From a virus: DNA of 18,997 nucleotides. The position numbers and the translations under genes are program-made. The notes under the pieces were generated by a model. That model saw only the letters and a program-made list of their open reading frames with translations. It did not search any database and was not told where the DNA came from. The number at the start of each line of letters is the position of its first letter. Positions within the stretch are counted from its first letter, which is position 1. Where the stretch lies: UHGV virus genome UHGV-0102822. One strand, written 5' to 3'. This document shows, piece by piece, positions 1,669 to 18,077 of this stretch.

Positions 1669-3606
1669 ATGCTCAAGTTAAAACGAGAATATACAGTCCA
1701 AGACGTTACTGAAACCGATGGCGTTTTTGAAATCGCATTCAGCTCTGAAACTCCTGTTGAGCGTCAGATTGAAGATGAATACGGACATCCAGTTACGGTT
1801 AATGAAATTCTTGTTCATGACGGTCCTCATAATGCAGACCTTACAAGAATTAATAACGGTGCTGCTTTGCTGTTTAATCACGATTTCGATAAACATCTCG
1901 GAAAAGTAATTCCTGGTTCTGTTCGAATTGATTCAGACCGTATCGGTCGCGCAAATGTCCAATTCAGTAAACATGGCTCTTTAGCCCAAGAAGTTTATGA
2001 AAAAGTCAAAGAAGGAACAATCAGCAAGATTTCTTTCGGATATGACTTGAATGAATATGAACTCAAGGGTCAAGACTTATTAGTTACGCTTTGGTCTCCA
2101 TATGAAATAAGTTTTGTAACTGTTCCTGCTGACGATTCCGTGGGGTTGGGAAGATTACTAAATACAAATAACAAAAGCGTTAAGAAATTACGCGAATTAA
2201 ATTTAACTAACAAAGGTACTCGAATGAAACGCATTGATGAAATGACGAAAGACGAACTGGTAGAAATGACCATTGACGAAATCGAAATGCTGTCCGAAGA
2301 AGATCGCGCGAAACGTGAAGAAATTCTGGAAGAAGTAAAAGTCGAAACTGAAAATTCTGGTGATTCTGCTGTTGTCGAAACTGACAATTCTCCTGCTGTT
2401 GTTCCTGCTGGTGATGAATTAACAGAAGAAGAACGCGAAGAAGAAACGGAAGAAATTCTTGAAATCGCACAGCGCTACAAAGTAGCACAAAAAGACGTTG
2501 CAAGCGCAATCGCTAAAGGCATGACCGCACGTCAATTTAAACGTTCTATTAAACCTAACAAAGCTCCGGCGGTAATTCGTAACATGACTAAAGATACTAA
2601 AGTAAATCTGGAAGATAAATTCGACCTTGGCGATGCTGTTCGCTCTATGATGAATGGTAAAGCTGTTCGTGGCGCTGCTGCTGAATATACACAAGAAATG
2701 ACTCGTAAGCGTCTACAACGTGGTCTTAGCGTTTCAACCGGTATCTATATGCCTGTAAATGCTATTGCTCAGAACTCACGCGCAATTAACACTGTTCCTA
2801 CTGTTTCTCCAATTCAGGAAACTGTTCAGCGTTATGATTCATTCGTTGAAATGCTATTGAAAGGTACTGTTGCTGATAAATTGGGTGTTAACTTCCTGAC
2901 TGGTTTGAAAACTCCGATTTCTGTACCAAAACAAACTAAATCTTCTGTTGAAGCATTCGGTTTCGTTGATGAAAACGGTGAATCTCCAGAAGGCGAAAGC
3001 GCATTCACCAACATTAAGTTTGAACCAAAAACATTTACTGGTGGTAACCCAATTTCTCGTCAAGCTCTGTTGACTCTGCCAAATCTGGGCGCTTTCATTT
3101 CTGACCACATTGTTAAGCACTCACGCGCTAAACTGGAAGGTCTGATGTTTGGTTCTCTGACTGATGCTAAAGCACCTGATTCAATCGTTGCTCAGTTGAC
3201 TGCACAGGCAATGGGAATGACCTACAAAGAGTTCATCGTTGAAGCTGCAAAAGCTAAAGGCAATGGCGTTGATATGGCTGCATTTAAATATCTGATGGCT
3301 GCTGCTCTTGAAGGTGATTTGAAAACCACTCTGCGTGATGCTGGTGTTTCTGGTTATATCATCGACGACATGAACAAAATCGGCGGACATGATGTTATCG
3401 GTTCTGGTCTGGTTAAAGATGGTCAGGTTATCTCTGGTGACTTCTCCGCTGTAACTGTAGCTGAATGGGAAGGTCTTGCTCTTGACCTAGACGACACAAC
3501 TTATCGTAACAAAGGCGCTATCGTTCCTCGCGTTTGGGCTGATATCGATTGGAAAGTTTGTGCTGACGATCGTCTGTTCCTGCACGAAAAAAAGACGGGA
3601 GCTTAA
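1669..3606 (+). CDS. prohead protease (HK97 gp4 / peptidase S78-like) fused to an acidic scaffold-like linker and an HK97-fold major capsid protein domain
   Basis: The N-terminal ~165 aa align by eye with HK97 gp4 protease, including the His (LFNHDFD) and Ser (ISKISFGYD) catalytic contexts and the ISFVTVPADD segment. The middle is an acidic helical stretch (EEEREEETEEILEIAQRY). The C-terminal ~370 aa have an HK97-type capsid character (GDFSAVTVAEWEGLALDLDD, DDRLFLHEKK tail). The gene is followed by a strong terminator, as expected for a highly expressed capsid gene. Confidence 0.75.
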   Translation: MLKLKREYTVQDVTETDGVFEIAFSSETPVERQIEDEYGHPVTVNEILVHDGPHNADLTRINNGAALLFNHDFDKHLGKVIPGSVRIDSDRIGRANVQFSKHGSLAQEVYEKVKEGTISKISFGYDLNEYELKGQDLLVTLWSPYEISFVTVPADDSVGLGRLLNTNNKSVKKLRELNLTNKGTRMKRIDEMTKDELVEMTIDEIEMLSEEDRAKREEILEEVKVETENSGDSAVVETDNSPAVVPAGDELTEEEREEETEEILEIAQRYKVAQKDVASAIAKGMTARQFKRSIKPNKAPAVIRNMTKDTKVNLEDKFDLGDAVRSMMNGKAVRGAAAEYTQEMTRKRLQRGLSVSTGIYMPVNAIAQNSRAINTVPTVSPIQETVQRYDSFVEMLLKGTVADKLGVNFLTGLKTPISVPKQTKSSVEAFGFVDENGESPEGESAFTNIKFEPKTFTGGNPISRQALLTLPNLGAFISDHIVKHSRAKLEGLMFGSLTDAKAPDSIVAQLTAQAMGMTYKEFIVEAAKAKGNGVDMAAFKYLMAAALEGDLKTTLRDAGVSGYIIDDMNKIGGHDVIGSGLVKDGQVISGDFSAVTVAEWEGLALDLDDTTYRNKGAIVPRVWADIDWKVCADDRLFLHEKKTGA

Positions 3607-3611
3607 CTGAT

Positions 3612-3634
3612 ACAGGAGCACAAGCTGCTCCTGT
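3612..3634 (+). promoter_or_regulatory. perfect 9-bp hairpin just after the capsid stop codon, no U-tract
   Basis: ACAGGAGCA-CAAGC-TGCTCCTGT. The stem sequesters an AGGAG; candidate RNase III or mRNA-stability element. Confidence 0.4.
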
Positions 3635-3671
3635 CAGAAAGCCACGCGCTCTTAAGGTAACAAAATAAATT

Positions 3672-3696
3672 AGGGACTCTTCGGAGTCCCTTTTTT
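3672..3696 (+). terminator. rho-independent terminator after the capsid gene
   Basis: GGGACTC-TTCG-GAGTCCC, a perfect 7-bp GC-rich stem with a UUCG tetraloop, followed by TTTTTT. Confidence 0.75.
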
Positions 3697-3706
3697 CGTT
3701 TTGGAA

Positions 3707-8433: not shown

Positions 8434-8922
8434 ATGGCTGATAAAGCATATGATATTTTCGCTGGCTCTTACGTCAGTGTATTTTTCAACTCTGACGTAT
8501 TGAACAAAGATATCGACTCAGAGAAATTCGTAGAAGTTCCTGAAGTTGGCGCATTTCCTACGACTGGTATCGAACGTGAGGTAATCGTTGCTCCTAACTT
8601 TACTCACAAATACAGCCGTAAACTGGTTGGTCGTGGTTCTGTTCCTGATATCGATTTGACTGTTAACTATATTCCTGGGTCTATTCATGATCAGCTTTAT
8701 AAGCTTGCGGAAGATGGTAAACGTGGTCAGTTCAAAATCGTTTATTGGATGGATGCTTCTAAAGAAATCGGTGTTGCAAAAATGTATAACGGTTTCCTGT
8801 CAAGCGCTACTTATTCCGGTGGTGAATCAGAAGTTGCTGCACAGGCTATGACTCTGAGTGTTGATGGTGGTCCAATTGCCGAAGCTTTGGTTGATTTGAC
8901 TGCTCCAACTCCAGAAGGCTAA
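8434..8922 (+). CDS. putative tail tube or minor tail protein
   Basis: 162 aa, acidic, with a pattern loosely reminiscent of tail-tube-fold proteins (DIDLTVNYIPGS...KRGQFKIVYW...GGESEV). Flanked by a terminator on each side, suggesting an abundantly expressed structural gene. Assignment is weak. Confidence 0.35.
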   Translation: MADKAYDIFAGSYVSVFFNSDVLNKDIDSEKFVEVPEVGAFPTTGIEREVIVAPNFTHKYSRKLVGRGSVPDIDLTVNYIPGSIHDQLYKLAEDGKRGQFKIVYWMDASKEIGVAKMYNGFLSSATYSGGESEVAAQAMTLSVDGGPIAEALVDLTAPTPEG

Positions 8923-8943
8923 TCGTTTTATTGTTCAATCTTA

Positions 8944-8969
8944 AAAGACTCCTAACGGGGTCTTTTTTT
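8944..8969 (+). terminator. rho-independent terminator after the 162-aa gene
   Basis: AAAGACTCC-TAAC-GGGGTCTTT, a 9-bp stem with one G-U pair, followed by a run of seven T (three of them in the stem). Confidence 0.7.
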
Positions 8970-8973
8970 GGCT

Positions 8974-8983
8974 CTAAATAAAG
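8974..8983 (+). promoter_or_regulatory. CTAAATAAAG motif (candidate late promoter) upstream of the gpK-like gene
   Basis: Exact CTAAATAAAG immediately after the terminator, then AGAGG SD and ATG 9002. Confidence 0.4.
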
Positions 8984-9001
8984 TCAGAGGTGAATCTTAA
9001 A

Positions 9002-9418
9002 ATGTTTAAATTTCAAGCTGACTTATCAAAATTATTAAATCGTTATATCAACAAAGAACACAAATACGGTCAAAACGACTGTAATATCCTTGTCGCTGAA
9101 TATATCGATATGACTTGCGGAACAGATTACGCAAGCAAACTTATTTCCAAATATGACTCTGTTCAATCGGGTTTAAAACACTGCAAAGAACTTACAGGTT
9201 TTAATAACGTTTTAGAAGCTTGTGAAAAGCATTTCGAAAAATCAAACATTATCGAAACAGGGTCAATTGTCTTAATTAAAAAAACATACAGACGCCGAGT
9301 TTATTACGTTGCGTCGATTGTCTTTAACGACAAAGCAATTATTGAACACAACAACAAATACGCTTTGATAAACGTAAAAGATTTTGAATACGAATTAATT
9401 TTTAACAGGAGAAAATAA
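9002..9418 (+). CDS. NlpC/P60-type tail assembly protein (lambda gpK C-terminal domain-like)
   Basis: 138 aa from ATG 9002; the track's GTG 8990 overlaps the SD. Cys-His-His spacing typical of NlpC/P60 (QNDCNILVAEY ... IIEHNNKYALI). Sits directly upstream of the gpJ-like gene, as gpK does in lambda. Confidence 0.55.
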   Translation: MFKFQADLSKLLNRYINKEHKYGQNDCNILVAEYIDMTCGTDYASKLISKYDSVQSGLKHCKELTGFNNVLEACEKHFEKSNIIETGSIVLIKKTYRRRVYYVASIVFNDKAIIEHNNKYALINVKDFEYELIFNRRK

Positions 9419-12400
9419 TGGCTATTGTCGCAATTGGTGCAATCATCGCTGGTGCTTCTGCTGGTCTTGCTGCTTATGCCGCTGGGATGGCATTAGCTAT
9501 TTCAATCGGTATTGGTGTTGCTGTTGCTGCTGTTTCCGCTTTAATGTCAACAGCTATGCAACCAACTGTTCCTCGATTTAATACAAGTGATACCGCAACA
9601 ACATTAGGAACAACGTCTGATCCTTCAACTGTATTACCGATTATCTACGGTGAACAACGCACAGGAACAATTAACGTTTGGGATGCTGTAGGAAATGATA
9701 CGACTTATTTGGTGCAAATTTTTGCAATTGCCGAAGGTGAAGTTGATAGCTTTAAAAACCTTTATATCGATAACAAGCGTATTCTGAATGATGCCGTTTA
9801 TCGTGATGGAATTGTTTCAAGAGGTTCAATCGTTTCTCAATATCAAGACTATGTGCAAGTTGAATTCTCTGTTGGTAAAGAACAAGGTCATCATTTCAAA
9901 CTTGCTGAACAATACTTAGGAAATGACCCAAGTGGCTGGCCTGTTTCTGCTACAGGTAACGGTGTCGCTTCTTGCTGTATCGTAATGCAGAAACGAAATT
10001 CAGACTTACAAAACCAAGCTGATATCCTACAACCTAACAGTCAGGTCGCTGTTGATGTTAGAGGACGTTTGATTACTGACTTAAACACGGGACAAATCGT
10101 TCCATCTCGCAACGGTGCAAGTCAGATTGTCGATTATCTGACGAACGAACGATACGGATTAGGAGTTTCACTTGATAAAATTAACCTTGATAGTTTTAAA
10201 GCTGCTGCAAATTATGCTTTAAGCAATCAACTATTTTCCGATGGTGCAACAGACCCTAACGCAACGTTTAAAGAAAACTTAACTCAGCTTGCAGGTGCTT
10301 TTAACGGAATGATTTTCGAATCATTCGGACAAGTTTATTGCAAAATCGATGGTCCTGATGTTGTTTCATTTGATTTCGATGAAGAAAATATTTCTGCTGG
10401 TTCAGTTTCGTTGAATTCAGGTGGTTCAGAGGAATATTACAATACGCTGAACGTGAAATATCAAGATCCTGCAATCGATTATTCCGAGCAAGTTCTTCGT
10501 TATCCATCTGACGTGACGACCGACAAAACAATTCAATATGATAAACGTATTATCGCGAAAGATGTTAATTATCGTTTTGTGAAATCTAAAGACCAATTGG
10601 ACAAACTTGCTTCAATCGAACGTAACAAATCACTGTTAAAACAGATTATCAGCTTTAGTTCTCCTGATTCCTATACTATTCAAGTTTGGGATGTTATCAG
10701 AGTTAACTTTGATGAATTAAATTTGCAAGATTCGTTATGGCGCGTTACTAACGTTAGTCGTTCAATGAATAAGGGCGTTGCTGGTATCGTTAACATCACA
10801 GCTACTGAATATATTGAAGAAGTTTATACCGATTTAGACTATGCGAAAGATCCTAATAACAACGGTTCAAACGTACCAAACAAAGGATACTTGATTGCTC
10901 CTACGAATCTTAAAGTTTCAAGCGTTTCAGAAACAGCTTTAGGAAGAACTTTTAAAGTTTCATGGAATTCAGAGCAAGATTTTAACCGTTCAGGTTTTTA
11001 TATTCAATATGCAGTTGCAGGAACAAACCAATGGACTCAAGCAGGATTCACATCAGGAAATTCTTACTTGATTATGAACATGGACCCATTGCAGAAATAT
11101 GATATTCGTGTTTGTGCTTCTGGTGTTTTCTATACGTCTGAATGGGTTTATTCAATGAATGTTAACCCTGATGTCGTTTATAATCTGCCTAAAGTTCGTG
11201 GTCTAAGACTTGTTAACTCTGAGTTTAATAACAACGTTACGCAACAAACGCAATTTGAATTTGCATGGGATAATCAGAGTTCAGAGAAATTCGAAGTTGA
11301 CGGCGTTCAACAGACTTTCGAACAAGTATTTCAGTATTACGAAATCAAAATCACTGGACAAAGACCTGTTGTATACAGAACTAAAGATTTGAGCTTCATT
11401 TATGATTTACGAATGAACCAGCAAAACGGTATCAGTCGTGAAATTAAATTTGAAATCACTGCTGTTGGTTATTCAGGTTTAAGATCTGAACCTACTGAAT
11501 TAATCGTAAGAAATAATCAAGCTCCTGCAATAATCGGTTTTACTGCTTCGAATGGTCCTGGATTATTGATGTGTTCTTGGAACGATCCAATGAGTGTTGC
11601 ACCTGATTATTCTGGAACTGTTATTCAAGTTTCAAATAATCCTGAATTCACTGACATTAATCAAGTTCAGTTGAGTTCTAGCCAGTTCATTGAAAACTTC
11701 CCGTTAGTTGACGGTGAATATTATGTTCGAGCTGCATGGTATGACGTTTTCGGACAAGACCAATTAGTTTGGACTGAATCAGTTTATATCAACATGAAAT
11801 GGGATATTCCATGGACAGAAGATATGAAAGACCAGTTAAACGACTTGCTTGATTTAGACCAACGAGTTGATGGTGCTATCGAGGACGCTTTAGAACTCGC
11901 AAATGCTTATACCGATACTCAGATAACATCAACTAAGCAGGAAGTAACAACCGAGATTGATCAGAAGATCAGCACGTCTAATACAACGTTGCATACTCAG
12001 ATAACGAATGAAACGCAAGGCGCTATCAATCAGGCTATTACGATTCAAACGGCTGATTTTGACGGTAAGTTAAACTCTGCTATAACCGAAGTTGAGAAAA
12101 CCCAAGCGGATGATCGTGCTGCAACAGCTTCACAAATCAGCCAATTAAAAGCTGAAACTACGGATATGGTCGCGACTGTTTCTACCGAAGCAAAAGCAAG
12201 CGTTGACGATTTAGCAGGAACTGTTAACAGTAAATGGGCTGTTTCTACAAACGCCGATGGTGTCGTAGCTGGTATTAGTATGTTGGCATCTAAGGACGCT
12301 GCGGGAAATAAAGCCTCAAGCATTATTTTTAACGCTGATAAGATTGCTATAACAAATAATAACACTGCTCCTAATGCTGTTCCACCGTTCATGGTCGCAG

Positions 12401-13098
12401 ATGATAGAGTTTATTTACAAAGCGCGATGATTCGCAATGCTTCGATCGGTAATGCTCAAATTGCTAATGCTGCAATTGATAATGCCAAAATTGCTAATGC
12501 TGCAATTAATAACGCGCAGATTCAAGACGGTGCTATTACAACAGCGAAAATTGGTAATGCTCAAATCGGTTCAGCACAAATTGCCTGGGAAATATCCTCT
12601 GATAACTGGGTTCCTTCCGGTGGTACTCAAGGATGGACAATTAGAAAAGATGGTTGGGCTTCATTCCAAAACGTTACAGTTAAAGGAAATATTCAAGCTG
12701 ATTCTGGTTATTTCTCAGGAGAAATCAGAGGTGGTTCTGGTTATTTCACAGGGACTGTTTACGCTGACAGAATCGAAGGTGACGTTATCAAAATGGGATT
12801 TGTCGATCCGTGGGGATCTGTTCATATTCCTGCTGTTGGTTGGAGAAGAATGATTGCTATTCCTAACGTTGCAATCGCCGGAAGAACTTATTCTGGTGGT
12901 ACTGGTTGGGGTGGTGGCAAAGCGTGGTTAAGACTCTCAAACGGCCAAGAAGTTGTTTACGTTCAATCTCAATCTCTAAACGGTTCAAACGGTGGTGTCG
13001 CATACATCGAAGCGGGACAAGCTGTTGATTTAACTTATACGGTCGAATTAAACCGAGCAGAAGCCTCAAGGGCAGTTTATTTTATCAGTAAAGTTTGA
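9418..13098 (+). CDS. central tail fiber / tip attachment protein (lambda gpJ-like) with a fused hydrophobic Gly/Ala-rich N-terminus
   Basis: 1226 aa. After a ~45-aa hydrophobic stretch comes a gpJ-type N-terminal domain (VLPIIYGEQRTGTINVWDAVGN...LVQIFAIAEGEVDSF), then fibronectin-III-like repeats (APTNLKVSSVSETALGRTFKVSWN...), a coiled region, a 5-residue-period repeat tract and a C-terminal domain. The start ATG overlaps the gpK-like stop (TAATG). Confidence 0.75.
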   Translation: MAIVAIGAIIAGASAGLAAYAAGMALAISIGIGVAVAAVSALMSTAMQPTVPRFNTSDTATTLGTTSDPSTVLPIIYGEQRTGTINVWDAVGNDTTYLVQIFAIAEGEVDSFKNLYIDNKRILNDAVYRDGIVSRGSIVSQYQDYVQVEFSVGKEQGHHFKLAEQYLGNDPSGWPVSATGNGVASCCIVMQKRNSDLQNQADILQPNSQVAVDVRGRLITDLNTGQIVPSRNGASQIVDYLTNERYGLGVSLDKINLDSFKAAANYALSNQLFSDGATDPNATFKENLTQLAGAFNGMIFESFGQVYCKIDGPDVVSFDFDEENISAGSVSLNSGGSEEYYNTLNVKYQDPAIDYSEQVLRYPSDVTTDKTIQYDKRIIAKDVNYRFVKSKDQLDKLASIERNKSLLKQIISFSSPDSYTIQVWDVIRVNFDELNLQDSLWRVTNVSRSMNKGVAGIVNITATEYIEEVYTDLDYAKDPNNNGSNVPNKGYLIAPTNLKVSSVSETALGRTFKVSWNSEQDFNRSGFYIQYAVAGTNQWTQAGFTSGNSYLIMNMDPLQKYDIRVCASGVFYTSEWVYSMNVNPDVVYNLPKVRGLRLVNSEFNNNVTQQTQFEFAWDNQSSEKFEVDGVQQTFEQVFQYYEIKITGQRPVVYRTKDLSFIYDLRMNQQNGISREIKFEITAVGYSGLRSEPTELIVRNNQAPAIIGFTASNGPGLLMCSWNDPMSVAPDYSGTVIQVSNNPEFTDINQVQLSSSQFIENFPLVDGEYYVRAAWYDVFGQDQLVWTESVYINMKWDIPWTEDMKDQLNDLLDLDQRVDGAIEDALELANAYTDTQITSTKQEVTTEIDQKISTSNTTLHTQITNETQGAINQAITIQTADFDGKLNSAITEVEKTQADDRAATASQISQLKAETTDMVATVSTEAKASVDDLAGTVNSKWAVSTNADGVVAGISMLASKDAAGNKASSIIFNADKIAITNNNTAPNAVPPFMVADDRVYLQSAMIRNASIGNAQIANAAIDNAKIANAAINNAQIQDGAITTAKIGNAQIGSAQIAWEISSDNWVPSGGTQGWTIRKDGWASFQNVTVKGNIQADSGYFSGEIRGGSGYFTGTVYADRIEGDVIKMGFVDPWGSVHIPAVGWRRMIAIPNVAIAGRTYSGGTGWGGGKAWLRLSNGQEVVYVQSQSLNGSNGGVAYIEAGQAVDLTYTVELNRAEASRAVYFISKV
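12430..12585 (+). repeat. tandem 15-bp / 5-residue periodic repeat tract inside the gpJ-like gene
   Basis: About nine consecutive pentapeptide units: IGNAQ IANAA IDNAK IANAA INNAQ IQDGA ITTAK IGNAQ IGSAQ. The underlying DNA repeats AATGCTCAAATTGCT / AATGCTGCAATTGAT. Confidence 0.7.
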
Positions 13099-13122
13099 TT
13101 TCTTTCCCCCAAATCCGTTTTT

Positions 13123-13132
13123 CTAAATAAGA
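13123..13132 (+). promoter_or_regulatory. CTAAATAAGA motif (candidate late promoter) upstream of the small-gene cluster
   Basis: Lies 28 nt upstream of ATG 13160; AAAGGAGAAAG SD in between. Confidence 0.35.
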
Positions 13133-13159
13133 CATGGAGGTCTTAAAAGGAGAAAGAAA

Positions 13160-13456
13160 ATGGGTGTTGAAGCCATCATTTCTTTCGCGGGACTGCTATG
13201 CGCTGGCTTTGGATGGATTTGGTCTCAAAAGAACGCAATGGAAGCCGACGCTTTAAAAATCGAACAGAGACTATCTGAAATCGAGAAAAGCGTTGCTCTT
13301 AATAGTGCGACCGATTCAAACGCAAATACTGAATTAACCAACGTTCGTGATTCGTTTAAGGAGTTTAAAGGTGATATGAAAAGTATAGACAATCGAATTA
13401 GAGAAATCGAAATTCGATTAGCGGTGATAGACAGTGAAACGAAAAGAAATAAATAA
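13160..13456 (+). CDS. small membrane-anchored coiled-coil protein (N-terminal TM helix plus helical domain)
   Basis: 98 aa. N-terminal hydrophobic segment AIISFAGLLCAGFGWIW, followed by heptad-like charged helical sequence (ALKIEQRLSEIEKS ... IDNRIREIEIRLAVID). The architecture resembles an i-spanin or other signal-anchored periplasmic protein, but function is unassigned. Confidence 0.5.
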   Translation: MGVEAIISFAGLLCAGFGWIWSQKNAMEADALKIEQRLSEIEKSVALNSATDSNANTELTNVRDSFKEFKGDMKSIDNRIREIEIRLAVIDSETKRNK

Positions 13457-13889
13457 TTACAAGAAAACCCTTTTTGATAAACAAAATAAAAGATGTGCTT
13501 TAACTGGGATAGAAATTACCGATGTTAATAAAGCCCATTTAGACCATGACCACGCTCTTGATGGTTCTCAAGCTGGACGATGCCGAGGATTATTACTCGC
13601 ACAGGCAAACGTCCTTGAGGGCAGATTAAAACATCAATTCATGTATTCAGGTTTAGCGAAGCACATCGAATATATTGATTTTTTAAAAAGATTGGTAACT
13701 TATCTCGAAAAAGATAATTCTAAAAATCCTATTCATCCTCAACTTGTAACAGACCTATCAAAGCGCTTTTCGAAAATGACGTTAAAGCAAATGAAAGAGA
13801 CTTTATTAGCAGAGGACATAAATCCAGTTGGTGATAAAAAATCTCTCATTAACTTGTACAAACAAAATTTAAAGGTGAAGTATGATTGA
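13434..13889 (+). CDS. recombination endonuclease VII homolog (T4 gp49-like, His-Me/HNH-type junction resolvase)
   Basis: 151 aa from GTG 13434, overlapping the upstream ORF by 23 nt. Clear similarity to T4 endonuclease VII as I recall it: HLDHDH, AG-x-x-RGLL, N...LEG..KH.F, SGL, and LVTYLEKDNSKNPIHPQLV versus T4 LLTYLKSDYTQNNIHPNFV. Confidence 0.8.
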   Translation: MKRKEINNYKKTLFDKQNKRCALTGIEITDVNKAHLDHDHALDGSQAGRCRGLLLAQANVLEGRLKHQFMYSGLAKHIEYIDFLKRLVTYLEKDNSKNPIHPQLVTDLSKRFSKMTLKQMKETLLAEDINPVGDKKSLINLYKQNLKVKYD

Positions 13890-14094
13890 AAAAATGAAAG
13901 CTGCATTCAAGAAACTTCCAGCAATGACAGGGGACTTTAAAAAGAAATTCATTTACGCGATGATTGCAATGGCTGTTTATAATTACATCGTTGTTCCGTG
14001 TGCATTGAGTTTCTTCGGAATAGTTCTTCCTATCGTTCCTCTTGATGAAGCTATGAAATATATCTTTGCAATTGTTTCATTTGGGAGTATGTAA
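13882..14094 (+). CDS. small hydrophobic membrane protein (holin-like size, possible dual start)
   Basis: 70 aa. N-terminus MIEKMK has two in-frame ATGs (13882 and 13894) separated by a Lys-containing tripeptide. A ~30-residue hydrophobic core (FIYAMIAMAVYNYIVVPCALSFFGIVLPIV) and a short hydrophobic C-terminus. Start overlaps the endo VII stop; AAAGGTGA SD. Confidence 0.45.
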   Translation: MIEKMKAAFKKLPAMTGDFKKKFIYAMIAMAVYNYIVVPCALSFFGIVLPIVPLDEAMKYIFAIVSFGSM

Positions 14095-14633
14095 TGGCGA
14101 AACTTGGTGGAGTTAAAAAAGACTTAGACAAATGGCGAATAAAAGAATCTGATCAGTTCTCTAAAAGAGTAACTAAAGCGTCTAAACTCGCTTCTGTTGA
14201 GTTACAACGAAAGATTAATCGACGTGTTGAAGGACCTGTGAATTTCACCAAGAACGCCGTTGGGTTCAGATTTAAGATTGATAAAGAAGGAACAACTAAC
14301 AGAATCTTTATCAAAGACGTTCAGGCGAATTATCTTTCACACTTGATAGATGATAACAGTCCGATTAACAAATATGTTCCAACAGGGGTAAGAGGTTCGA
14401 CTAACCAGTTCGGTAACATTCCAGGATTAAAAACTCGTAGAAACCTAGAGGCAGTCAAACAAAAGAAAGATGGTATTAACAGAACGATTCTGATTAAGAC
14501 AAATGTTAAAAAACAGAACAAAAGAGTTATTGCTATTTTCAAACGTCATCAAACTCGTAAGAAATCTATTGGTTCTTGGACTGATATTGGTAATGACATC
14601 ATAAAAACGGTTCGTCGTGTTGCTACTAAATAA
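14094..14633 (+). CDS. hypothetical highly basic protein
   Basis: 179 aa, Lys/Arg-rich throughout. ATG overlaps the upstream stop (TAATG); GGGAG SD. No recognisable catalytic motif. Confidence 0.5.
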   Translation: MAKLGGVKKDLDKWRIKESDQFSKRVTKASKLASVELQRKINRRVEGPVNFTKNAVGFRFKIDKEGTTNRIFIKDVQANYLSHLIDDNSPINKYVPTGVRGSTNQFGNIPGLKTRRNLEAVKQKKDGINRTILIKTNVKKQNKRVIAIFKRHQTRKKSIGSWTDIGNDIIKTVRRVATK

Positions 14634-14636
14634 AAG
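14626..14636 (+). promoter_or_regulatory. CTAAATAAAAG motif (candidate late promoter) plus AAAAGGAGA Shine-Dalgarno
   Basis: Part of CTAAATAAAAGAAAAGGAGACAAAATG, 24/27 identical to the cassette at 3707-3733. Overlaps the stop codon of the preceding gene. Confidence 0.45.
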
Positions 14637-14649
14637 AAAAGGAGACAAA

Positions 14650-14970
14650 ATGAACTTAAATGATTTTGAAACATATCGTGTTGACGAACTCGATTCTATT
14701 TTTATCAAAGAGCACAATCCAGAGTCGATGACTATTCCTTATAGCTTTGAACTGGTGAAAGAAACTCGTATAAAAAGGAATCTTCAAAACGACCAAAACG
14801 TTTTTATTGTTAGCACTCAGAAAAAGAAACCTCGTTATCATTTCAAGAATAATGAAATCGTAGAAATCAATGGTCCTTTCTTTGAACAAAATGCTGTTTG
14901 TATTTTTCAGCAAGAATATATTCATAAAGGATTCAGAATGATTGGATATTTCTTCCAATTCATCGAGTAA
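14650..14970 (+). CDS. hypothetical protein
   Basis: 106 aa from ATG 14650; the track's 14617 start is a GTG inside the promoter/SD cassette. Followed by a strong terminator. Confidence 0.5.
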   Translation: MNLNDFETYRVDELDSIFIKEHNPESMTIPYSFELVKETRIKRNLQNDQNVFIVSTQKKKPRYHFKNNEIVEINGPFFEQNAVCIFQQEYIHKGFRMIGYFFQFIE

Positions 14971-14973
14971 TCA

Positions 14974-15005
14974 AAAGGAGTTATCTTCGTGATAGCTCCT
15001 TTTTC
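14974..15005 (+). terminator. rho-independent terminator
   Basis: AAAGGAGTTATC-TTCGT-GATAGCTCCTTT, a 12-bp stem with one G-U pair, followed by a T-run. Confidence 0.65.
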
Positions 15006-15007
15006 GG

Positions 15008-15018
15008 CATAAATAAAG
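15008..15018 (+). promoter_or_regulatory. CATAAATAAAG motif (candidate late promoter) upstream of the chaperone / tape measure operon
   Basis: Variant of the recurring motif, immediately after the terminator and 31 nt before ATG 15050. Confidence 0.35.
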
Positions 15019-15049
15019 TAAACATTTAAATTAACTATAGGATTAAGAA

Positions 15050-15346
15050 ATGAAATTCGAAGAAATGATCGCCGCTCTCGGAGCAAAACGAGAAGTTGTA
15101 GAAATCAAAGGTTTTAAATTTTATGTTCGCGCAATGACCGTTGAAGAATTTGGTAAATTCTTTTTTATGGAAGACCAGACCGATAATATGATTCTGAAAT
15201 GCATTGAGAACGAAGACGGATCCCCTGTTTTTGAAAATATCGAACAAGTCAAACAACTTTATACCACCGTTCGCGCTCAACTTTCTGCTGCTGTTTCTGC
15301 TGCTTCTGTTATGAAAGAAGAAACTCACGCTGTGGAAAAGAATTAA
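15050..15346 (+). CDS. tail assembly chaperone (lambda gpG-like) by position and frame relationship
   Basis: 98-aa acidic ORF directly upstream of the tape measure gene. The downstream ORF is open in the -1 frame across its 3' end (from 15235). Confidence 0.5.
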   Translation: MKFEEMIAALGAKREVVEIKGFKFYVRAMTVEEFGKFFFMEDQTDNMILKCIENEDGSPVFENIEQVKQLYTTVRAQLSAAVSAASVMKEETHAVEKN

Positions 15347-15381
15347 GGCAGAATCCTTATAAAATATTCAAATTCAGAACC

Positions 15382-15729
15382 ATGTTGCGTAGAGGTTTTA
15401 CCGAACGTGAAATTCTGGATATGAGTATTAAGGATTTCTATGAACTGTGGATATATGAAACTTTCATTGAACCTCAAGGTCCTGCTGTAAATGACTTACA
15501 TCAAGCGCATATAGCATTTTCTGTTTTTGCTAATAATCCAAATATTACAAAAGAAGGTTCGAAGAAATTAAAACTGAAAGATTTCATGTTCATCAAGGAT
15601 AAAGTTTTTAAATCTCCTGAAGAACTGGAAGAAGAACAGAAAAAAGCCGCAGAAGCCAACAGAAAGAAAATGGAATCTATGTTCGACCCGAAACTTCTTG
15701 CGAAAGCAAAAGCTAAAAATAGGAAATAA
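15382..15729 (+). CDS. tail assembly chaperone extension (gpT-like part), probably expressed as a G-T fusion by -1 frameshifting
   Basis: The reading frame is open from 15235, in the -1 frame relative to 15050-15346. There is no Shine-Dalgarno before ATG 15382. The product has a basic C-terminus and the gene ends 2 nt before the tape measure start. Coordinates are as given in the ORF track; the true product probably starts at 15050 and shifts frame near 15334-15340. Confidence 0.4.
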   Translation: MLRRGFTEREILDMSIKDFYELWIYETFIEPQGPAVNDLHQAHIAFSVFANNPNITKEGSKKLKLKDFMFIKDKVFKSPEELEEEQKKAAEANRKKMESMFDPKLLAKAKAKNRK

Positions 15730-15731
15730 TA

Positions 15732-18077
15732 ATGGCGAATTCTCGTTATGATGTTGAGATTCGCGGAGATAATAAAGGACTGTCTACTGCTGTAAAAGAC
15801 TCTATGGACGAACTGAATAAACTTGATTCAGCCGCTCAGGGTCTTTTTAGTAATTTCACAGGTCCACTAAATGGTCTCAGCGATGGTCTCAGCACGATTC
15901 AAAGTATGTCCCCTGCGTTACGCGCATTGGGTGCAGCGGGGTTAGTTGCAGGTGCTGGTTTTGCTGCAATTAATAAAGCTGCTGAAACTGTTAACGTATT
16001 AAATCAGGTTAACACAACAACTGGCGTTTCTATTGAAATGCTTCAACAGTTGCAATCAACGTTCAAAGCTACCGGAATGGACGTTGAGAAATTCGGTGAT
16101 TTAAACAAAGACGCAATGGATAAACTCGGTGATTCTTTGAGAGCTGGCGGTGGTGGTATTGCCGACGACTTAGAAGAATGGGGTTTAAAACTTGAAGATT
16201 ATGCAAAATATGCTGGTGATGCCGAAGGTGGTATTAAAGCATTAATCGACACGTTCTATCAATTAAGAGCCGCTGGTAAATCATCTGCTGAAATTACTAA
16301 CGCAATGGAATCAATGGCGTCTGATGGTTCTCATTTGATTTCAACATTACAGAATTTTTCTAATACCCAAGACGCATTAAACGCAATTCAAGGTCAAACA
16401 GTTTCAATTACTCAAGACGTTGCCGACGAATTCAAAGAATATGAAAGAAACATGAATTCTTTGAAGAAAGCAACTAATGAATTCACGGTCGAAGCTGCTA
16501 GTCCATTAGTTCGTGAATTTAACAATCTTTATGAGTGGATGGATGGTATTGATTGGAGTGAAACGTCTTTTGCGAAATGGCTAAGAGAGAATAACAAAAA
16601 GGGTATAACTCCTTCTGGTATGTCCTCTGGTCAAGTGCAGAATATCGGAAAGTCTGTTGAAGCAATCGAAATTGAAAAGCGTCAGGCGTTTATTGCAGAA
16701 AATGCCAAGTTGCTTAAAAAACAAGTTAATCAGCTAGTTCGTTTAGCTGAACAAGAAACGATGGCAAATAAGGCTCGCCAGAAAGTCTTAGAAGAAAAAG
16801 CGAAGAAAGAAAAAGACGCTGCTGATAAAGCTGAACGTGAAAGAAAATCTGCTGCTGATAAAGCCGAAAGGGAACGTAAAGCTGCAATGGCTAAAGCCAA
16901 AGCTGATTATGACAAAATGATGGCTGATCGTGCTCAGGCAGTTGAATCTCTGAAACAGTTAGACGTTGCGGTTATTGCTCAAGAAGGACGTTCATATGCT
17001 TCTCAGATTAATCAGACTCAGCAAGCACTAACAAAGCTTCAAGAACTAAGAGACAAAGGGATAATCTCACAGGAGCAATTCCTAGAACGTCGTAATTCTC
17101 TATTGATTAACTCGTCAAAAGAATTCTCCGACAGTCTTAAGGCTAATCCTGCTGACATTGGCATTATCACTCAGTCGATGAATCAAATGTTCGATATTCA
17201 AAAGCAAGAACTGGATATTAAACGTCAACAGAACTTGATTTCAGAACAGCAATACAACGAACAGTTAGAGAATCTCCAAATTGCACATCAAGAGAAGATG
17301 AAAGCAATTAAAGAGATTGATGCTAATCAGGTGAATATGCAGAACTTGAATTCAATTGGTTTCGCAACTGATGAAGAAAGAATGGCATTAGAGCAAGAAG
17401 CATTAAATCAACAGTTCGAAAGGTTCAGAGAACAGAATCAGAAAATGTACGAATCTGGACTTTTGTCGCATGAACAATTTTTAGAGCAAAAAAGACGACT
17501 AGACAAGGCTTATTCTGTTCAGTCTGAAAATATTGCTATGATGGAAATTCAAACGAAAATGGGAATGTATAACGGTTTTGCTCAAGGCATGGCTGGTGTT
17601 ATTTCCGGTATTTCGGGTGAAAACTCTAAAGCCGCTCAAGCTGCGTTTGCAGTAGCTAAAGGAACAGCTATCGCAAATGGTATGTTAAACGCATATCAAT
17701 CTGCAACTAAAGCAATGGCAACTTATCCTGGTCCTTTGGGATACGCATTAGCCGCATCAAGTTATGCGCAAGTTTTAGGACAAGTTATGTCCATGAAATC
17801 TGTGAATATGACTGGTATGGCTCACGATGGCATTTCTGAAATTCCAAGAGAAGGAACATGGCTGCTTGATGGTGGTGAAAGAGTCGTTGATCAGAGAACT
17901 AACGGAGATTTGAAAGACTTCTTGAATAATCAAAGCGAGTCTAAGACTCAGCCTATTGATGCTCGTGTAATCGTACAAGGAAACGTGACTGATCAGCGTT
18001 GGTTTGCTGAACAACTCAAGAAGCAAGAAAAGATTATCACATCAATTGTTCAATCAGGAAACAGACGCAAAATGTAA
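15732..18077 (+). CDS. tail tape measure protein
   Basis: 781 aa. Long predicted helical, charged coiled-coil central region with an internal tandem repeat (AADKAERERK x2), and a Gly/Ala-rich hydrophobic segment near the C-terminus (AQAAFAVAKGTAIANGMLNAYQSATKAMATYPGPLGYALAASSYAQVLG). Preceded by the chaperone pair. Confidence 0.8.
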   Translation: MANSRYDVEIRGDNKGLSTAVKDSMDELNKLDSAAQGLFSNFTGPLNGLSDGLSTIQSMSPALRALGAAGLVAGAGFAAINKAAETVNVLNQVNTTTGVSIEMLQQLQSTFKATGMDVEKFGDLNKDAMDKLGDSLRAGGGGIADDLEEWGLKLEDYAKYAGDAEGGIKALIDTFYQLRAAGKSSAEITNAMESMASDGSHLISTLQNFSNTQDALNAIQGQTVSITQDVADEFKEYERNMNSLKKATNEFTVEAASPLVREFNNLYEWMDGIDWSETSFAKWLRENNKKGITPSGMSSGQVQNIGKSVEAIEIEKRQAFIAENAKLLKKQVNQLVRLAEQETMANKARQKVLEEKAKKEKDAADKAERERKSAADKAERERKAAMAKAKADYDKMMADRAQAVESLKQLDVAVIAQEGRSYASQINQTQQALTKLQELRDKGIISQEQFLERRNSLLINSSKEFSDSLKANPADIGIITQSMNQMFDIQKQELDIKRQQNLISEQQYNEQLENLQIAHQEKMKAIKEIDANQVNMQNLNSIGFATDEERMALEQEALNQQFERFREQNQKMYESGLLSHEQFLEQKRRLDKAYSVQSENIAMMEIQTKMGMYNGFAQGMAGVISGISGENSKAAQAAFAVAKGTAIANGMLNAYQSATKAMATYPGPLGYALAASSYAQVLGQVMSMKSVNMTGMAHDGISEIPREGTWLLDGGERVVDQRTNGDLKDFLNNQSESKTQPIDARVIVQGNVTDQRWFAEQLKKQEKIITSIVQSGNRRKM
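16818..16883 (+). repeat. imperfect 33-bp tandem duplication inside the tape measure gene
   Basis: GCTGCTGATAAAGCTGAACGTGAAAGAAAATCT followed by GCTGCTGATAAAGCCGAAAGGGAACGTAAAGCT, encoding AADKAERERKS / AADKAERERKA. The Arg codons are swapped between synonymous forms. Confidence 0.7.

What the first reader, a model, noticed from the sequence alone, without database searches (positions are those of the whole stretch)
15235..15382. Chaperone pair in -1 frame relationship with no canonical slippery heptamer
The downstream ORF is open in the -1 frame from 15235 and lacks its own Shine-Dalgarno, so expression as a G-T fusion by programmed -1 frameshifting is expected. I could not find an X-XXY-YYZ heptamer in the 15235-15346 overlap. 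The best candidate is G-GAA-AAG at 15334-15340, just before the zero-frame stop. There the A-site Lys tRNA can re-pair AAG to AAA, while the P-site Glu tRNA would need a G-U pair at the middle position. That is a non-standard site, or the fusion is made another way.
Basis: partly seen in the sequence, partly recalled or inferred. Interest (0 to 1): 0.4.

Follow-up and report, generated by a model that had tools for sequence, protein, structure and literature searches.

The report
Tail chaperone frameshift, non-standard slip site
An E. coli prophage almost certainly makes its tail-assembly chaperone fusion protein by a ribosome slipping back one base at G-GAA-AAG, a slip site that breaks the textbook rule but is kept across the whole gene family; this is a clear, so far unannotated example of a known trick rather than a new mechanism.

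Summary
G (15050-15346) and the T reading frame sit just upstream of the tape-measure gene. T is in the -1 frame and open from 15235. ATG 15382 has no Shine-Dalgarno. The overlap contains no X_XXY_YYZ heptamer. G_GAA_AAG lies at 15334-15340, one codon before the G stop.

I compared 85 related loci from IMG/VR, metagenomes, E. coli chromosomes and phage DCP80.
- T is in the -1 frame in all 85.
- 84 carry exactly one in-frame NNA_AAG in the overlap.
- In one relative the overlap is only 7 nt, which pins the shift to that motif.
- At 80% identity there are 20 clusters. Seven use canonical heptamers (A_AAA_AAG, T_TTA_AAG). Thirteen use [G/A]_G[A/T]A_AAG.
- The Lys codon at the site is always AAG, against 24% AAG elsewhere in these genes.
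- The window's Met codon is Ile or Leu in 7 of 13 representatives.
- Invariant residues (F107, R110 of the fusion) lie upstream of that Met.

The most likely mechanism is a -1 frameshift driven by tRNA-Lys re-pairing from AAG to AAA, with only partial re-pairing of the P-site tRNA-Glu. It would give a 226-aa GT fusion. Hexanucleotide and intermediate slip sites of this type are already known, so this is a new member of a known kind. No family-wide stimulator was found. Nothing here has been shown experimentally.

The parts
15050..15346 (+). G: tail assembly chaperone ORF (98 aa, 11.2 kDa), zero frame, stop TAA 15344-15346
   Evidence: ORF list. phrog_344 'tail assembly chaperone' E 2.4e-6. Pfam Phage_TAC_13 E 0.0028, below the curated cut-off, but 8 of 13 family members match it, best E 7.8e-7. 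SD duplex -4.0 kcal/mol. Mass.
15334..15340 (+). Proposed -1 slip site G_GAA_AAG. P-site codon GAA 15335-15337, A-site codon AAG 15338-15340.
   Evidence: Codon listing. The same place carries one in-frame NNA_AAG in 84 of 85 related loci. The Lys codon is always AAG, against 24% AAG elsewhere in G/T. Heptamer position 1 is G in 9 of 13 non-canonical clusters, against a 19% G3 background.
15340..15729 (+). T segment read in the -1 frame after the shift (129 codons, ELRQNPYKIFKFRTMLRRG...; stop TAA 15727-15729). Together with G residues 1-97 it gives the 226-aa GT fusion.
   Evidence: Translation. phrog_337 E 1.2e-8. In the fusion the phrog_337 match starts at residue 107, upstream of Met112. 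Pfam Phage_tail_T E 3.3e-4, sub-threshold, matched by 8 of 13 family members. F107 and R110 are invariant.
15232..15234 (+). TGA that closes the -1 frame upstream. The -1 frame is open from 15235, and this sets the 5' limit for any productive shift.
   Evidence: The -1-frame peptide between 15235 and the slip site (KYRTSQTTLYHRSRSTFCCCFCCFCYERRNSRCG) has no counterpart in relatives. In most of them the -1 frame opens only 0-15 nt before the heptamer.
15382..15384 (+). ATG (Met112 of the fusion). It is the first start codon in the T frame but is probably an internal Met, not a start.
   Evidence: No SD: +0.2 kcal/mol. The aligned codon is Ile or Leu in 7 of 13 representatives. Gene callers disagree on the start: 115 aa from 15382 or 102 aa from the next ATG.
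15351..15437 (+). Long imperfect hairpin starting 10 nt after the heptamer. It is a candidate lineage-specific stimulator and is unproven.
   Evidence: dG -31.1 kcal/mol, z -6.1 against mononucleotide shuffles. z -3.1 against dinucleotide shuffles for 15300-15460. It lies in the 1st percentile of 100-nt windows of the locus. It is not conserved across the GAA clade: RNAalifold finds no consensus, and 56% of cells pair against 54% in shuffles.
15732..18077 (+). Tape measure protein gene (781 aa), directly downstream of T
   Evidence: phrog_13674 'tail length tape measure protein' E 9e-62. Named 'SHOCT domain-containing protein' in NCBI records.
8434..8922 (+). Major tail (tube) protein gene. 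It is given for context because in relatives it lies immediately upstream of G.
   Evidence: phrog_158 'major tail protein' E 1e-12. 52% identical to the E. coli prophage gene annotated 'phage tail tube protein'.

Best explanation
The pair is the tail-assembly chaperone G/GT of an E. coli / Enterobacteriaceae siphovirus-type prophage.

Most ribosomes translate G (15050-15346) to its TAA and release the 98-aa chaperone. A minority shift to the -1 frame at G_GAA_AAG (15334-15340).
- Before the shift, tRNA-Glu sits on GAA in the P site and the single E. coli tRNA-Lys (anticodon mnm5s2UUU) sits on AAG in the A site.
- The Lys tRNA slips back one base onto AAA (15337-15339), which it pairs with better than with AAG.
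- The Glu tRNA re-pairs with GGA: G-C at position 1, G-U in the middle, A-U at position 3.
- Reading resumes at GAA 15340-15342 and runs to TAA 15727-15729.
- The product is a 226-aa, 26.4-kDa GT fusion with the junction ...THAVEK|ELRQNPYK....

ATG 15382 is an internal methionine, not a start.

By analogy with lambda gpG/gpGT, the G part would bind the tape-measure protein and the T part would recruit the tube protein.

Shown here: the anatomy, the homology, and family-wide conservation of the motif and of the -1-frame peptide.

Inferred:
- that the shift happens at all;
- its efficiency, which I expect to be low, around a per cent or less, because no conserved stimulator was found;
- whether both tRNAs slip or only tRNA-Lys;
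- the protein function.
For: Identity of the genes: PHROG and Pfam hits for G, T and the tape-measure protein. Host is E. coli / Enterobacteriaceae.

Frame relation: T is in the -1 frame in 85 of 85 related loci.

Motif conservation:
- 84 of 85 loci have exactly one in-frame NNA_AAG in the overlap.
- The 20 clusters at 80% identity split as GGAAAAG 5, GGTAAAG 4, AGAAAAG 2, AGTAAAG 2, AAAAAAG 6, TTTAAAG 1.
- Close relatives therefore have textbook A_AAA_AAG or T_TTA_AAG where the window has G_GAA_AAG.
- The overlap is only 7 nt in L059 and 13 nt in the large E. coli clade, which leaves room for little else.
- The motif sits 1-4 residues upstream of the conserved N-P of T in different clades. 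It is therefore maintained by selection and not merely inherited in place.

Synonymous-site selection:
- The Lys codon is always AAG, against 24% AAG elsewhere.
- The codon before it always ends in A.
- The codon before that ends in G in 9 of 13 non-canonical clusters, although it encodes V, L, S, T or E. The G3 background is 19%, binomial 1.2e-4. This fits first-position re-pairing of the P-site tRNA.

No independent start:
- No SD at ATG 15382.
- The Met is not conserved, and invariant F107 and R110 lie upstream of it.
- DCP80 has no start codon at the aligned position. The first start codon in its T frame after the slip site is a TTG at L001 8016, and its annotated T gene is truncated.

Literature:
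- A_AAG is the most shift-prone tetramer in E. coli (PMC4066793).
- NNA_AAG hexanucleotide sites and G_GA / G_GU intermediates are documented, E. coli has a single tRNA-Lys, and lambda G:GT is 30:1 (PMC5009743).
Against: There is no experimental evidence for the fusion.

No family-wide stimulator was found.
- There is no SD-like element 6-17 nt upstream of the motif.
- The 40 nt downstream are less structured than background, median percentile 0.80.
- RNAalifold finds no consensus structure.

In Sharma et al. the bare tetramers were barely above background without a stimulator (0.147% against 0.112%) and needed a pseudoknot to reach 5.6%. The efficiency here could therefore be very low.

Four clusters have A at heptamer position 1 (A_GAA_AAG, A_GTA_AAG), where the P-site tRNA cannot re-pair at position 1. 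Tandem re-pairing is thus not obligatory.

In the window the G-T-tape-measure block is displaced from the tube gene, and two distal-tail genes seen in relatives were not found. This particular prophage may not build tails.

The clusters are not phylogenetically independent, so the binomial figures overstate significance.
Confidence: 0.8

Rival explanations
1. T is made as a separate 115-aa (or 102-aa) protein. Initiation or termination-reinitiation would occur at ATG 15382 (or ATG 15421) after ribosomes finish G, and no fusion is made.
For: ATG 15382 lies 35 nt after the G stop, a distance compatible with reinitiation. Public gene callers annotate T as a separate gene with either start. No stimulator for frameshifting was found.
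Against: Neither ATG has an SD: +0.2 and -0.9 kcal/mol. The Met is Ile or Leu in 7 of 13 representatives, and invariant F107 and R110 lie upstream of it. The phrog_337 match starts upstream of the Met. The -1 frame is open back to the NNA_AAG in 85 of 85 loci, and the frame relation is always -1. DCP80 has no start codon at the aligned position; the first start codon in its T frame after the slip site is TTG at L001 8016.
Confidence: 0.07
2. A -1 shift does occur, but elsewhere in the 109-nt overlap of the window. One example is T_GAA_AAT at 15232-15238, right where the -1 frame opens. Another route would be a different event such as a +2 shift or a hop.
For: The window's overlap is unusually long, 109 nt against 7-25 nt in most relatives. 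Other positions are therefore formally available. A_AAT is a Z_ZZN tetramer.
Against: The -1-frame peptide between 15235 and 15333 is Cys-rich (…STFCCCFCCFCYERRNSRCG) and has no counterpart in any relative. In relatives that stretch is closed by stop codons. The conserved G C-terminus (..E.EK) would be lost. Only NNA_AAG is shared by the family. A_AA.U is not among the six tetramers that rose at least four-fold above background in E. coli.
Confidence: 0.04
3. The arrangement is a relic. In this rearranged prophage the chaperone pair is no longer used, and the motif is kept only by descent.
For: In the window the G-T-tape-measure block sits after the tail-tip block instead of after the tube gene. 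Homologues of two distal-tail genes of relatives are absent from the window. The tape-measure protein matches the relative's over only its first 293 aa.
Against: G, T and the tape-measure gene are intact ORFs. The exact G protein is on record on about 254 contigs from E. coli and Citrobacter. Near-identical copies differ only at a few mostly synonymous positions. Missing genes may simply lie outside the 19-kb window.
Confidence: 0.06
4. RNA polymerase slippage on the A run adds or removes a base in the mRNA, so the fusion comes from an edited transcript and not from ribosomal frameshifting.
For: The A_AAA_AAG relatives carry a run of 7 A, where low-level slippage is conceivable.
Against: The window and the 13 non-canonical clusters have only 3-4 consecutive A (GGAAAAG, GGTAAAG). 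From general knowledge, that is far below the roughly 8-9 needed for productive transcriptional slippage. The invariant G after the A run, and the AAG codon phase, are what ribosomal slippage predicts and not what polymerase slippage predicts.
Confidence: 0.01

Closest known systems
Phage lambda gpG / gpGT (slip site G_GGA_AAG), and the conserved tail-chaperone frameshift of dsDNA phages (Levin et al. 1993; Xu et al. 2004, as cited in PMC5009743)
   Same: Two small ORFs lie directly upstream of the tape-measure gene, and the second is in the -1 frame with no start of its own. The A-site codon is AAG, slipping to AAA. The shift lies close to the end of G. The T part is remotely similar to lambda T (Pfam PF06223, sub-threshold). 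Low-level shifting would be sufficient, since lambda G:GT is 30:1.
   Different: The P-site triplet is G_GA instead of G_GG, so the middle position re-pairs as G-U. G belongs to a different chaperone family (Phage_TAC_13 / phrog_344). In this window the pair is not adjacent to the tube gene. Nothing has been tested experimentally.
NNA_AAG hexanucleotide -1 sites: IS1222 G_CGA_AAG, Bacillus subtilis cdd A_CGA_AAG, IS3 C_CAA_AAG (PMC5009743)
   Same: The shift is driven by tRNA-Lys moving from AAG to AAA. The preceding codon need only end in A, and its tRNA re-pairs poorly or partly. The family here uses GAA, GTA, AAA and TTA as that codon. The level of shifting is described as relatively low.
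   Different: In the IS3 case I read about, a strong downstream pseudoknot stimulates the shift. No conserved stimulator was found here. Here position 1 is usually G, which gives the P-site tRNA a first-position pair. That makes most members 'intermediate' heptamers and not pure hexamers.
'Intermediate' heptamers with X_XX = G_GA (insect-specific flaviviruses, some umbraviruses and dianthoviruses, mesoniviruses) or G_GU (phage T7 gene 10) (PMC5009743)
   Same: The first three bases follow the same pattern as the window's G_GAA_AAG and as the E. coli clade's G_GTA_AAG.
   Different: Those sites are followed by other A-site codons and mostly operate in eukaryotic hosts. T7 gene 10 is a capsid gene.
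E. coli dnaX A_AAA_AAG
   Same: Same host, same A-site event, and the same heptamer as in six clusters of this family.
   Different: According to the abstracts listed, dnaX frameshifting is assisted by an upstream internal SD sequence and downstream mRNA structure. From my own recollection, its shifting is about 50% efficient. Neither element is conserved here.
PRFect 'twofour' (XXYYYY) slippery motif, catalogued among annotated tail-chaperone frameshifts of SEA-PHAGES genomes (PMC10885494)
   Same: GGAAAA fits the XXYYYY pattern. That paper also invokes G-U pairing to explain non-canonical chaperone slip sites.
   Different: That catalogue is computational and drawn from high-GC actinophages. 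It does not address AAG-specific slippage in enterobacteria.

Membership tests
Tail assembly chaperone G/GT pair expressed by -1 programmed frameshift | Two small ORFs immediately upstream of the tape-measure gene | tested here: met
   G 15050-15346, T to 15729, tape-measure gene 15732-18077 (phrog_13674, E 9e-62).
Tail assembly chaperone G/GT pair expressed by -1 programmed frameshift | Pair located directly after the major tail (tube) gene. This is usual synteny, not strictly defining. | tested here: not met
   In the window the tube gene is at 8434-8922, about 6 kb upstream, with the tail-tip block in between. In relatives L108 and DCP80 the order is tube-G-T-tape measure.
Tail assembly chaperone G/GT pair expressed by -1 programmed frameshift | Second ORF overlaps the end of the first in the -1 frame and lacks its own translation start | tested here: met
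   The -1 frame is open from 15235. T is in the -1 frame in 85 of 85 relatives. No SD at ATG 15382. The Met is not conserved.
Tail assembly chaperone G/GT pair expressed by -1 programmed frameshift | A slip-prone sequence conserved in the overlap | tested here: met
   84 of 85 loci have one in-frame NNA_AAG. Seven of 20 clusters are canonical and 13 of 20 are non-canonical.
Tail assembly chaperone G/GT pair expressed by -1 programmed frameshift | Sequence similarity of G to chaperone families and of T to T-domain families | tested here: met
   phrog_344 E 2.4e-6 and phrog_337 E 1.2e-8. The window's own Pfam hits are below the curated cut-offs: PF16459 at 18.4 bits against 28.8, PF06223 at 21.5 against 25.9. 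However, 8 of 13 family members match each at E <= 0.01, best 7.8e-7 and 4.6e-4.
Tail assembly chaperone G/GT pair expressed by -1 programmed frameshift | Chaperone fold of G | tested here: inconclusive
   Single-sequence AlphaFold2 model has mean pLDDT 62.6. No Foldseek match in the PDB at E <= 0.001. No PDB match by sequence profile.
Tail assembly chaperone G/GT pair expressed by -1 programmed frameshift | A fusion protein is actually produced at a low fixed ratio and is needed for tail assembly | not testable with these tools
   Needs western blot, mass spectrometry or a reporter assay.
Canonical tandem-slippage heptamer X_XXY_YYZ | Positions 1-3 identical, so the P-site tRNA re-pairs at two positions plus wobble | tested here: not met
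   Positions 1-3 are G, G, A. No canonical heptamer exists anywhere in the overlap.
Canonical tandem-slippage heptamer X_XXY_YYZ | Positions 4-6 identical (A or U), so the A-site tRNA re-pairs | tested here: met
   Positions 4-7 are A_AAG, and AAG to AAA is cognate for E. coli tRNA-Lys (PMC4066793).
NNA_AAG hexanucleotide / A_AAG tetranucleotide -1 sites of bacteria | In-frame AAG preceded by a codon ending in A | tested here: met
   GAA_AAG in the zero frame. This is invariant across the family, while the NN of the preceding codon varies: GA, GT, AA, TT.
NNA_AAG hexanucleotide / A_AAG tetranucleotide -1 sites of bacteria | Host decodes AAA and AAG with a single tRNA-Lys (UUU) | tested here: met
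   The element is in E. coli and Citrobacter chromosomes. E. coli has one lysine tRNA (PMC5009743).
NNA_AAG hexanucleotide / A_AAG tetranucleotide -1 sites of bacteria | A stimulator (downstream hairpin or pseudoknot, or upstream SD) that lifts the shift above background | tested here: inconclusive
   None is conserved across the family. The window and its three nearest clades have an unusually stable long hairpin on the 100-nt scale, in the 1st-7th percentile. The zero-frame stop follows AAG by 0-1 codons in 64 of 73 unique sequences.

The most novel reading that the evidence does not exclude
This enterobacterial prophage family may be a natural allelic series. The tail-chaperone frameshift would run on a bare NNA_AAG site with a freely exchangeable P-site codon (GAA, GUA, AAA, UUA) and no dedicated stimulator. 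The nearby zero-frame stop may help. In the window's own subclade, an 87-nt hairpin starting 10 nt downstream may have been recruited as a lineage-specific stimulator. If so, the family would allow a direct in vivo test of how much P-site re-pairing and how much stimulation a biologically sufficient -1 frameshift really needs.
Probability: 0.25. Interest if true: 0.45.

Novelty: new member of a known kind. Interest (0 to 1): 0.3.

Why it matters
Three practical consequences follow.

First, annotation. In this family G is named 'cytochrome' or 'hypothetical' in public records. T is called with two different arbitrary starts, and no record I inspected marks the frameshift. The family occurs in E. 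coli chromosomes. One clade is in 52 of 5426 complete genomes, and the window's exact G protein is on about 254 contigs.

Second, prediction tools. Programs that require X_XXY_YYZ would miss 13 of the 20 clusters.

Third, mechanism. Canonical and non-canonical heptamers alternate between close relatives, the AAG is invariant, and position 1 is biased to G. Together these give comparative support for rules derived from reporter constructs: the A-site AAG-to-AAA move is the driver, and P-site re-pairing is helpful but dispensable.

None of this changes the known picture of tail-chaperone recoding.

Tried and rejected
DNA and protein searches that found little or nothing:
- Megablast and blastn of the region against 50,697 phage records found no match.
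- tblastn of T, and of an E. coli-clade GT fusion, found only phage DCP80. The family is essentially absent from isolated phages.
- The plasmid collection gave no match.
- The search for homologous proteins with the hypothetical GT fusion returned nothing at E <= 0.01, although the exact G and T are in that collection.
- The genome-contig scan gave a single locus, a Sphingobacterium MAG contig that is probably a binning artefact.

Search for a conserved stimulatory RNA structure:
- RNAalifold on 8 GAA-clade sequences gave no consensus.
- The window's own hairpin pairs in 56% of cells across the clade, against 54% in shuffles.
- The 40- and 60-nt stretches downstream of the site are not more structured than background.
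- I looked by eye for an SD-like element 6-17 nt upstream and found none.

Structure of G: the single-sequence AlphaFold2 model was of low confidence, and Foldseek and PDB sequence searches were uninformative.

Literature:
- Full-text searches for the strings GGAAAAG and GGTAAAG returned only noise.
- Licznar et al. 2003, the paper that tested all NNA_AAG motifs, is not held. The ranking of GAA against GUA as the 5' codon could therefore not be read. It is cited only through the review.
- The dnaX thermodynamic-model paper does not cover a Glu P-site codon.

Rejected readings: transcriptional slippage, because the A run is only 4 long; and a shift at the start of the overlap, because the Cys-rich -1 peptide there is not conserved.
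Full report
OBSERVATION

The window carries a 98-aa ORF at 15050-15346 and a downstream ORF whose first start codon is ATG 15382, ending at 15729. The second frame is the -1 frame of the first. It is closed by TGA 15232-15234 and open from 15235.

The zero-frame codons at the end of the first ORF are GCT GTG GAA AAG AAT TAA. G_GAA_AAG therefore occupies 15334-15340, one codon before the stop. A scan of the overlap finds no in-frame X_XXY_YYZ heptamer.

ATG 15382 has no Shine-Dalgarno. Its best duplex with the 16S 3' end is +0.2 kcal/mol. G, the tape-measure gene and most other well-supported genes of the window score -4 to -8.7. A shift at the proposed site gives a 226-aa, 26.4-kDa product.

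Within the window alone the motif is weak evidence.
- In-frame NNA_AAG occurs 25 times in 5833 codons, so 0.16 is expected in the overlap.
- GGAAAAG is not enriched: 5 found against 3.9 expected.
- It is, however, the only one of 43 in-frame slippery-type sites in the window's genes that is followed by a long -1 ORF. It has 129 codons; the next longest has 39.

WHAT THE GENES ARE

- The first ORF matches phrog_344 'tail assembly chaperone' (E 2.4e-6).
- The second matches phrog_337 'tail protein' (E 1.2e-8).
- The 781-aa ORF that follows directly matches tape-measure families (E 9e-62).
- The window's own Pfam hits are below the curated cut-offs: Phage_TAC_13 at E 0.0028 and lambda Phage_tail_T at E 3.3e-4.
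- Of 13 diverse family members, 8 match each Pfam family at E <= 0.01, best 7.8e-7 and 4.6e-4. Ten match phrog_344 at E <= 0.001.

The rest of the window is a siphovirus-type structural module: a lambda-family portal, a protease-capsid fusion, tail fibres, a tube protein and a J-like tail tip.

The exact G, T and tape-measure proteins are on record in E. coli and Citrobacter chromosomes. There G is named 'cytochrome', T is 'hypothetical' (called as 115 or 102 aa), and the tape-measure protein is 'SHOCT domain-containing'. The host is therefore an enterobacterium with a single tRNA-Lys (PMC5009743).

COMPARATIVE TEST

The family is almost absent from isolated phages; only E. coli phage DCP80 has it. 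Locus scans with an alignment of the hypothetical fusion recovered relatives from IMG/VR, metagenomes and E. coli chromosomes. Together with the window and DCP80 this gave 85 analysable loci, of which 73 of the 84 carrying the motif are unique in nucleotide sequence. Results:

(i) T is in the -1 frame in 85 of 85 loci.

(ii) 84 of 85 have exactly one in-frame NNA_AAG inside the overlap. The exception, L105, has a GAA-to-TAA nonsense change immediately before an otherwise intact AAAAAAG.

(iii) In most loci the -1 frame opens only 0-15 nt before the motif. The whole overlap is 7 nt in L059 (gtTGAAAAAAAGTAA) and 13 nt in the large E. coli clade. The shift can hardly be anywhere else.

(iv) At 80% protein identity there are 20 clusters: GGAAAAG 5, GGTAAAG 4, AGAAAAG 2, AGTAAAG 2, AAAAAAG 6, TTTAAAG 1. 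Relatives of the window thus carry textbook A_AAA_AAG or T_TTA_AAG where the window has G_GAA_AAG. Two thirds of the family is non-canonical.

(v) Synonymous sites are constrained.
- The Lys codon is always AAG, although AAG is only 24% of Lys codons elsewhere in these genes (19% in the window).
- The preceding codon always ends in A.
- The codon before that ends in G in 9 of 13 non-canonical clusters, although it encodes Val, Leu, Ser, Thr or Glu. The G3 background is 19%, binomial 1.2e-4.
- The clusters are not independent, so these figures are upper bounds on significance.

(vi) The motif lies 1-4 residues upstream of the conserved Asn-Pro of T in different clades. It is therefore maintained, not merely inherited in place.

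(vii) The peptide encoded in the -1 frame between the motif and the window's ATG is conserved (ELRQNPYKxFKFR). F107 and R110 of the fusion are invariant in 13 representatives. Met112, which is ATG 15382, is Ile or Leu in 7 of them. DCP80 has no start codon at the aligned position. The first start codon in its T frame after the slip site is TTG at L001 8016, and its annotated T gene is a truncated fragment. The phrog_337 match also begins upstream of the Met.

MECHANISM

The most likely event is a -1 ribosomal frameshift, with tRNA-Glu on GAA in the P site and tRNA-Lys on AAG in the A site.
- tRNA-Lys (mnm5s2UUU), the only lysine tRNA in E. coli, re-pairs with AAA.
- tRNA-Glu re-pairs with GGA.

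A_AA.G is by far the most shift-prone tetramer in E. coli (PMC4066793). The efficiency of NNA_AAG sites depends on the 5' codon. Heptamers with X_XX = G_GA or G_GU are recognised 'intermediates' between hexa- and heptanucleotide sites (PMC5009743).

The G bias at position 1 suggests that first-position re-pairing of the P-site tRNA matters. The four clusters with A at position 1 show it is not obligatory. Whether both tRNAs slip, or only tRNA-Lys does, cannot be decided here. One possibility for the single-tRNA route is slippage in the P site while the following stop codon is read slowly. The zero-frame stop follows AAG by 0-1 codons in 64 of 73 unique sequences.

STIMULATORS

I found no SD-like element 6-17 nt upstream of the motif. 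The 40 nt downstream are less structured than background across the family, median percentile 0.80. RNAalifold finds no consensus structure in the GAA clade.

The window itself has a long hairpin at 15351-15437.
- Its dG is -31.1 kcal/mol, and it lies in the 1st percentile of 100-nt windows of the locus.
- Three nearby clades are also unusually stable at that scale, in the 5th-7th percentile.
- The window's pairs are not kept across the clade: 56% of cells pair, against 54% in shuffles.

I treat this hairpin as a possible lineage-specific stimulator. Bare tetramers are near background in reporter assays. Lambda needs only about one GT per 30 G. I therefore expect a low efficiency, around a per cent or less, and this is inference.

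RIVALS

- Independent initiation or reinitiation at ATG 15382 is contradicted by points (i), (iii) and (vii) and by the missing SD.
- A shift elsewhere in the window's unusually long overlap would add a Cys-rich peptide with no counterpart in relatives, and would delete the conserved G C-terminus.
- Transcriptional slippage is implausible on a run of four A.
- A relic reading is kept at low probability. In this prophage the G-T-tape-measure block is displaced, and two distal-tail genes of relatives were not seen.

COMPARISON AND NOVELTY

In function and architecture this is the lambda gpG/gpGT arrangement. The slip site belongs to the documented NNA_AAG / G_GA-intermediate class (IS1222, cdd, IS3, T7 gene 10, insect flaviviruses). 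It also fits the XXYYYY 'twofour' pattern that PRFect catalogued among chaperone frameshifts.

It fails the canonical X_XXY_YYZ test on positions 1-3. What is new is modest: an unannotated and partly mis-named enterobacterial prophage chaperone family in which most members use non-canonical heptamers. I rate it a new member of a known kind, interest 0.3.

SIDE OBSERVATION

The protease-capsid gene (1669-3606) has an in-frame A_AAA_AAG at 3588-3594, three codons before its stop. It is followed by a stable hairpin: dG -22.4 kcal/mol, z -3.4, and none of 200 shuffles folds as well. The -1 frame then runs 24 codons to a stop that lies just before an intrinsic terminator.

The basic Lys/Ala-rich tail it encodes appears in relatives in three different arrangements:
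- fused in frame in L114-L117 and L122;
- in the -1 frame in L120, whose extension is clearly homologous, and in DCP80 after C_GAA_AAG;
- after an in-frame TGA in L108.

This looks like a second recoding site of the T7 gene 10A/10B type and deserves its own check.

Noticed in passing
window 3588-3668 (heptamer 3588-3594, capsid stop 3604-3606, -1 stop 3666-3668, terminator about 3672-3697): This is a candidate second programmed -1 frameshift, at the end of the protease-capsid gene. An in-frame A_AAA_AAG lies 3 codons before the stop. A hairpin follows (dG -22.4 kcal/mol, z -3.4). The -1 extension is 24 codons (KKDGSLTDTGAQAAPVRKPRALKVTK) and ends just before a terminator. Relatives carry a similar basic Lys/Ala-rich tail in frame (L114-L117, L122), in the -1 frame (L120 is homologous; DCP80 after C_GAA_AAG), or after an in-frame TGA (L108). 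It resembles T7 gene 10A/10B..
   Followed up: partly
window 8434-18077, compared with L108 14548-24545 and L001 7082-15897: The gene order differs from relatives. Relatives have tube-G-T-tape measure-(two small distal tail genes, one DUF2163)-DUF6950-tail tip. The window has tube-DUF6950-tail tip-...-G-T-tape measure. It shows no homologues of the two small distal-tail genes, and the tape-measure protein is similar over only its first 293 aa. The same arrangement is present in several NCBI genomes (L109-L112)..
   Followed up: partly
window 15050-15346, 15382-15729 and 15732-18077 (public records): Public names look wrong or uninformative. G is called 'cytochrome'. T is 'hypothetical protein' with two different starts (115 aa from ATG 15382 or 102 aa from the next ATG). 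The tape-measure protein is 'SHOCT domain-containing protein'. No record inspected marks a ribosomal slippage.
   Followed up: yes
window 15351-15437: An 87-nt imperfect hairpin inside the T coding region is unusually stable. It lies in the 1st percentile of 100-nt windows of the locus. Three neighbouring clades are also stable at that scale, but the pairs are not conserved..
   Followed up: partly
L105 1783-1797, compared with L104: One metagenomic relative has GAA changed to TAA immediately before its A_AAA_AAG (TTC TAA AAA AAG). This would terminate G before the slip site. It is either an inactivating mutation or a sequencing error..
   Followed up: yes
L001 (PQ671644.1, Escherichia phage DCP80): The only isolated-phage record with this chaperone family is 141 kb and labelled Straboviridae / Tevenvirinae / Gaprivervirus. 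Yet it carries this siphovirus-type capsid-tube-G-T-tape measure-tail tip module, with every gene annotated 'hypothetical'. The classification or the assembly may need checking..
   Followed up: no
window 13434-13889; L108 19560-20333: Nuclease genes sit inside the tail modules. The window has an endonuclease VII gene (phrog_423, E 4e-35) that overlaps the preceding 98-aa ORF. The E. coli relative has a NUMOD3-domain gene at a different place in its tail module. These may be mobile insertions linked to the rearranged gene order..
   Followed up: no
L022 (JBEBQJ010000175.1): The single hit in the species-representative genome collection is a 10-kb contig of a 'Sphingobacterium yanglingense' MAG. 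It is nearly identical in its chaperone proteins to loci L009/L010 of this family, whose identified hosts are enterobacterial, which points to a binning artefact..
   Followed up: no
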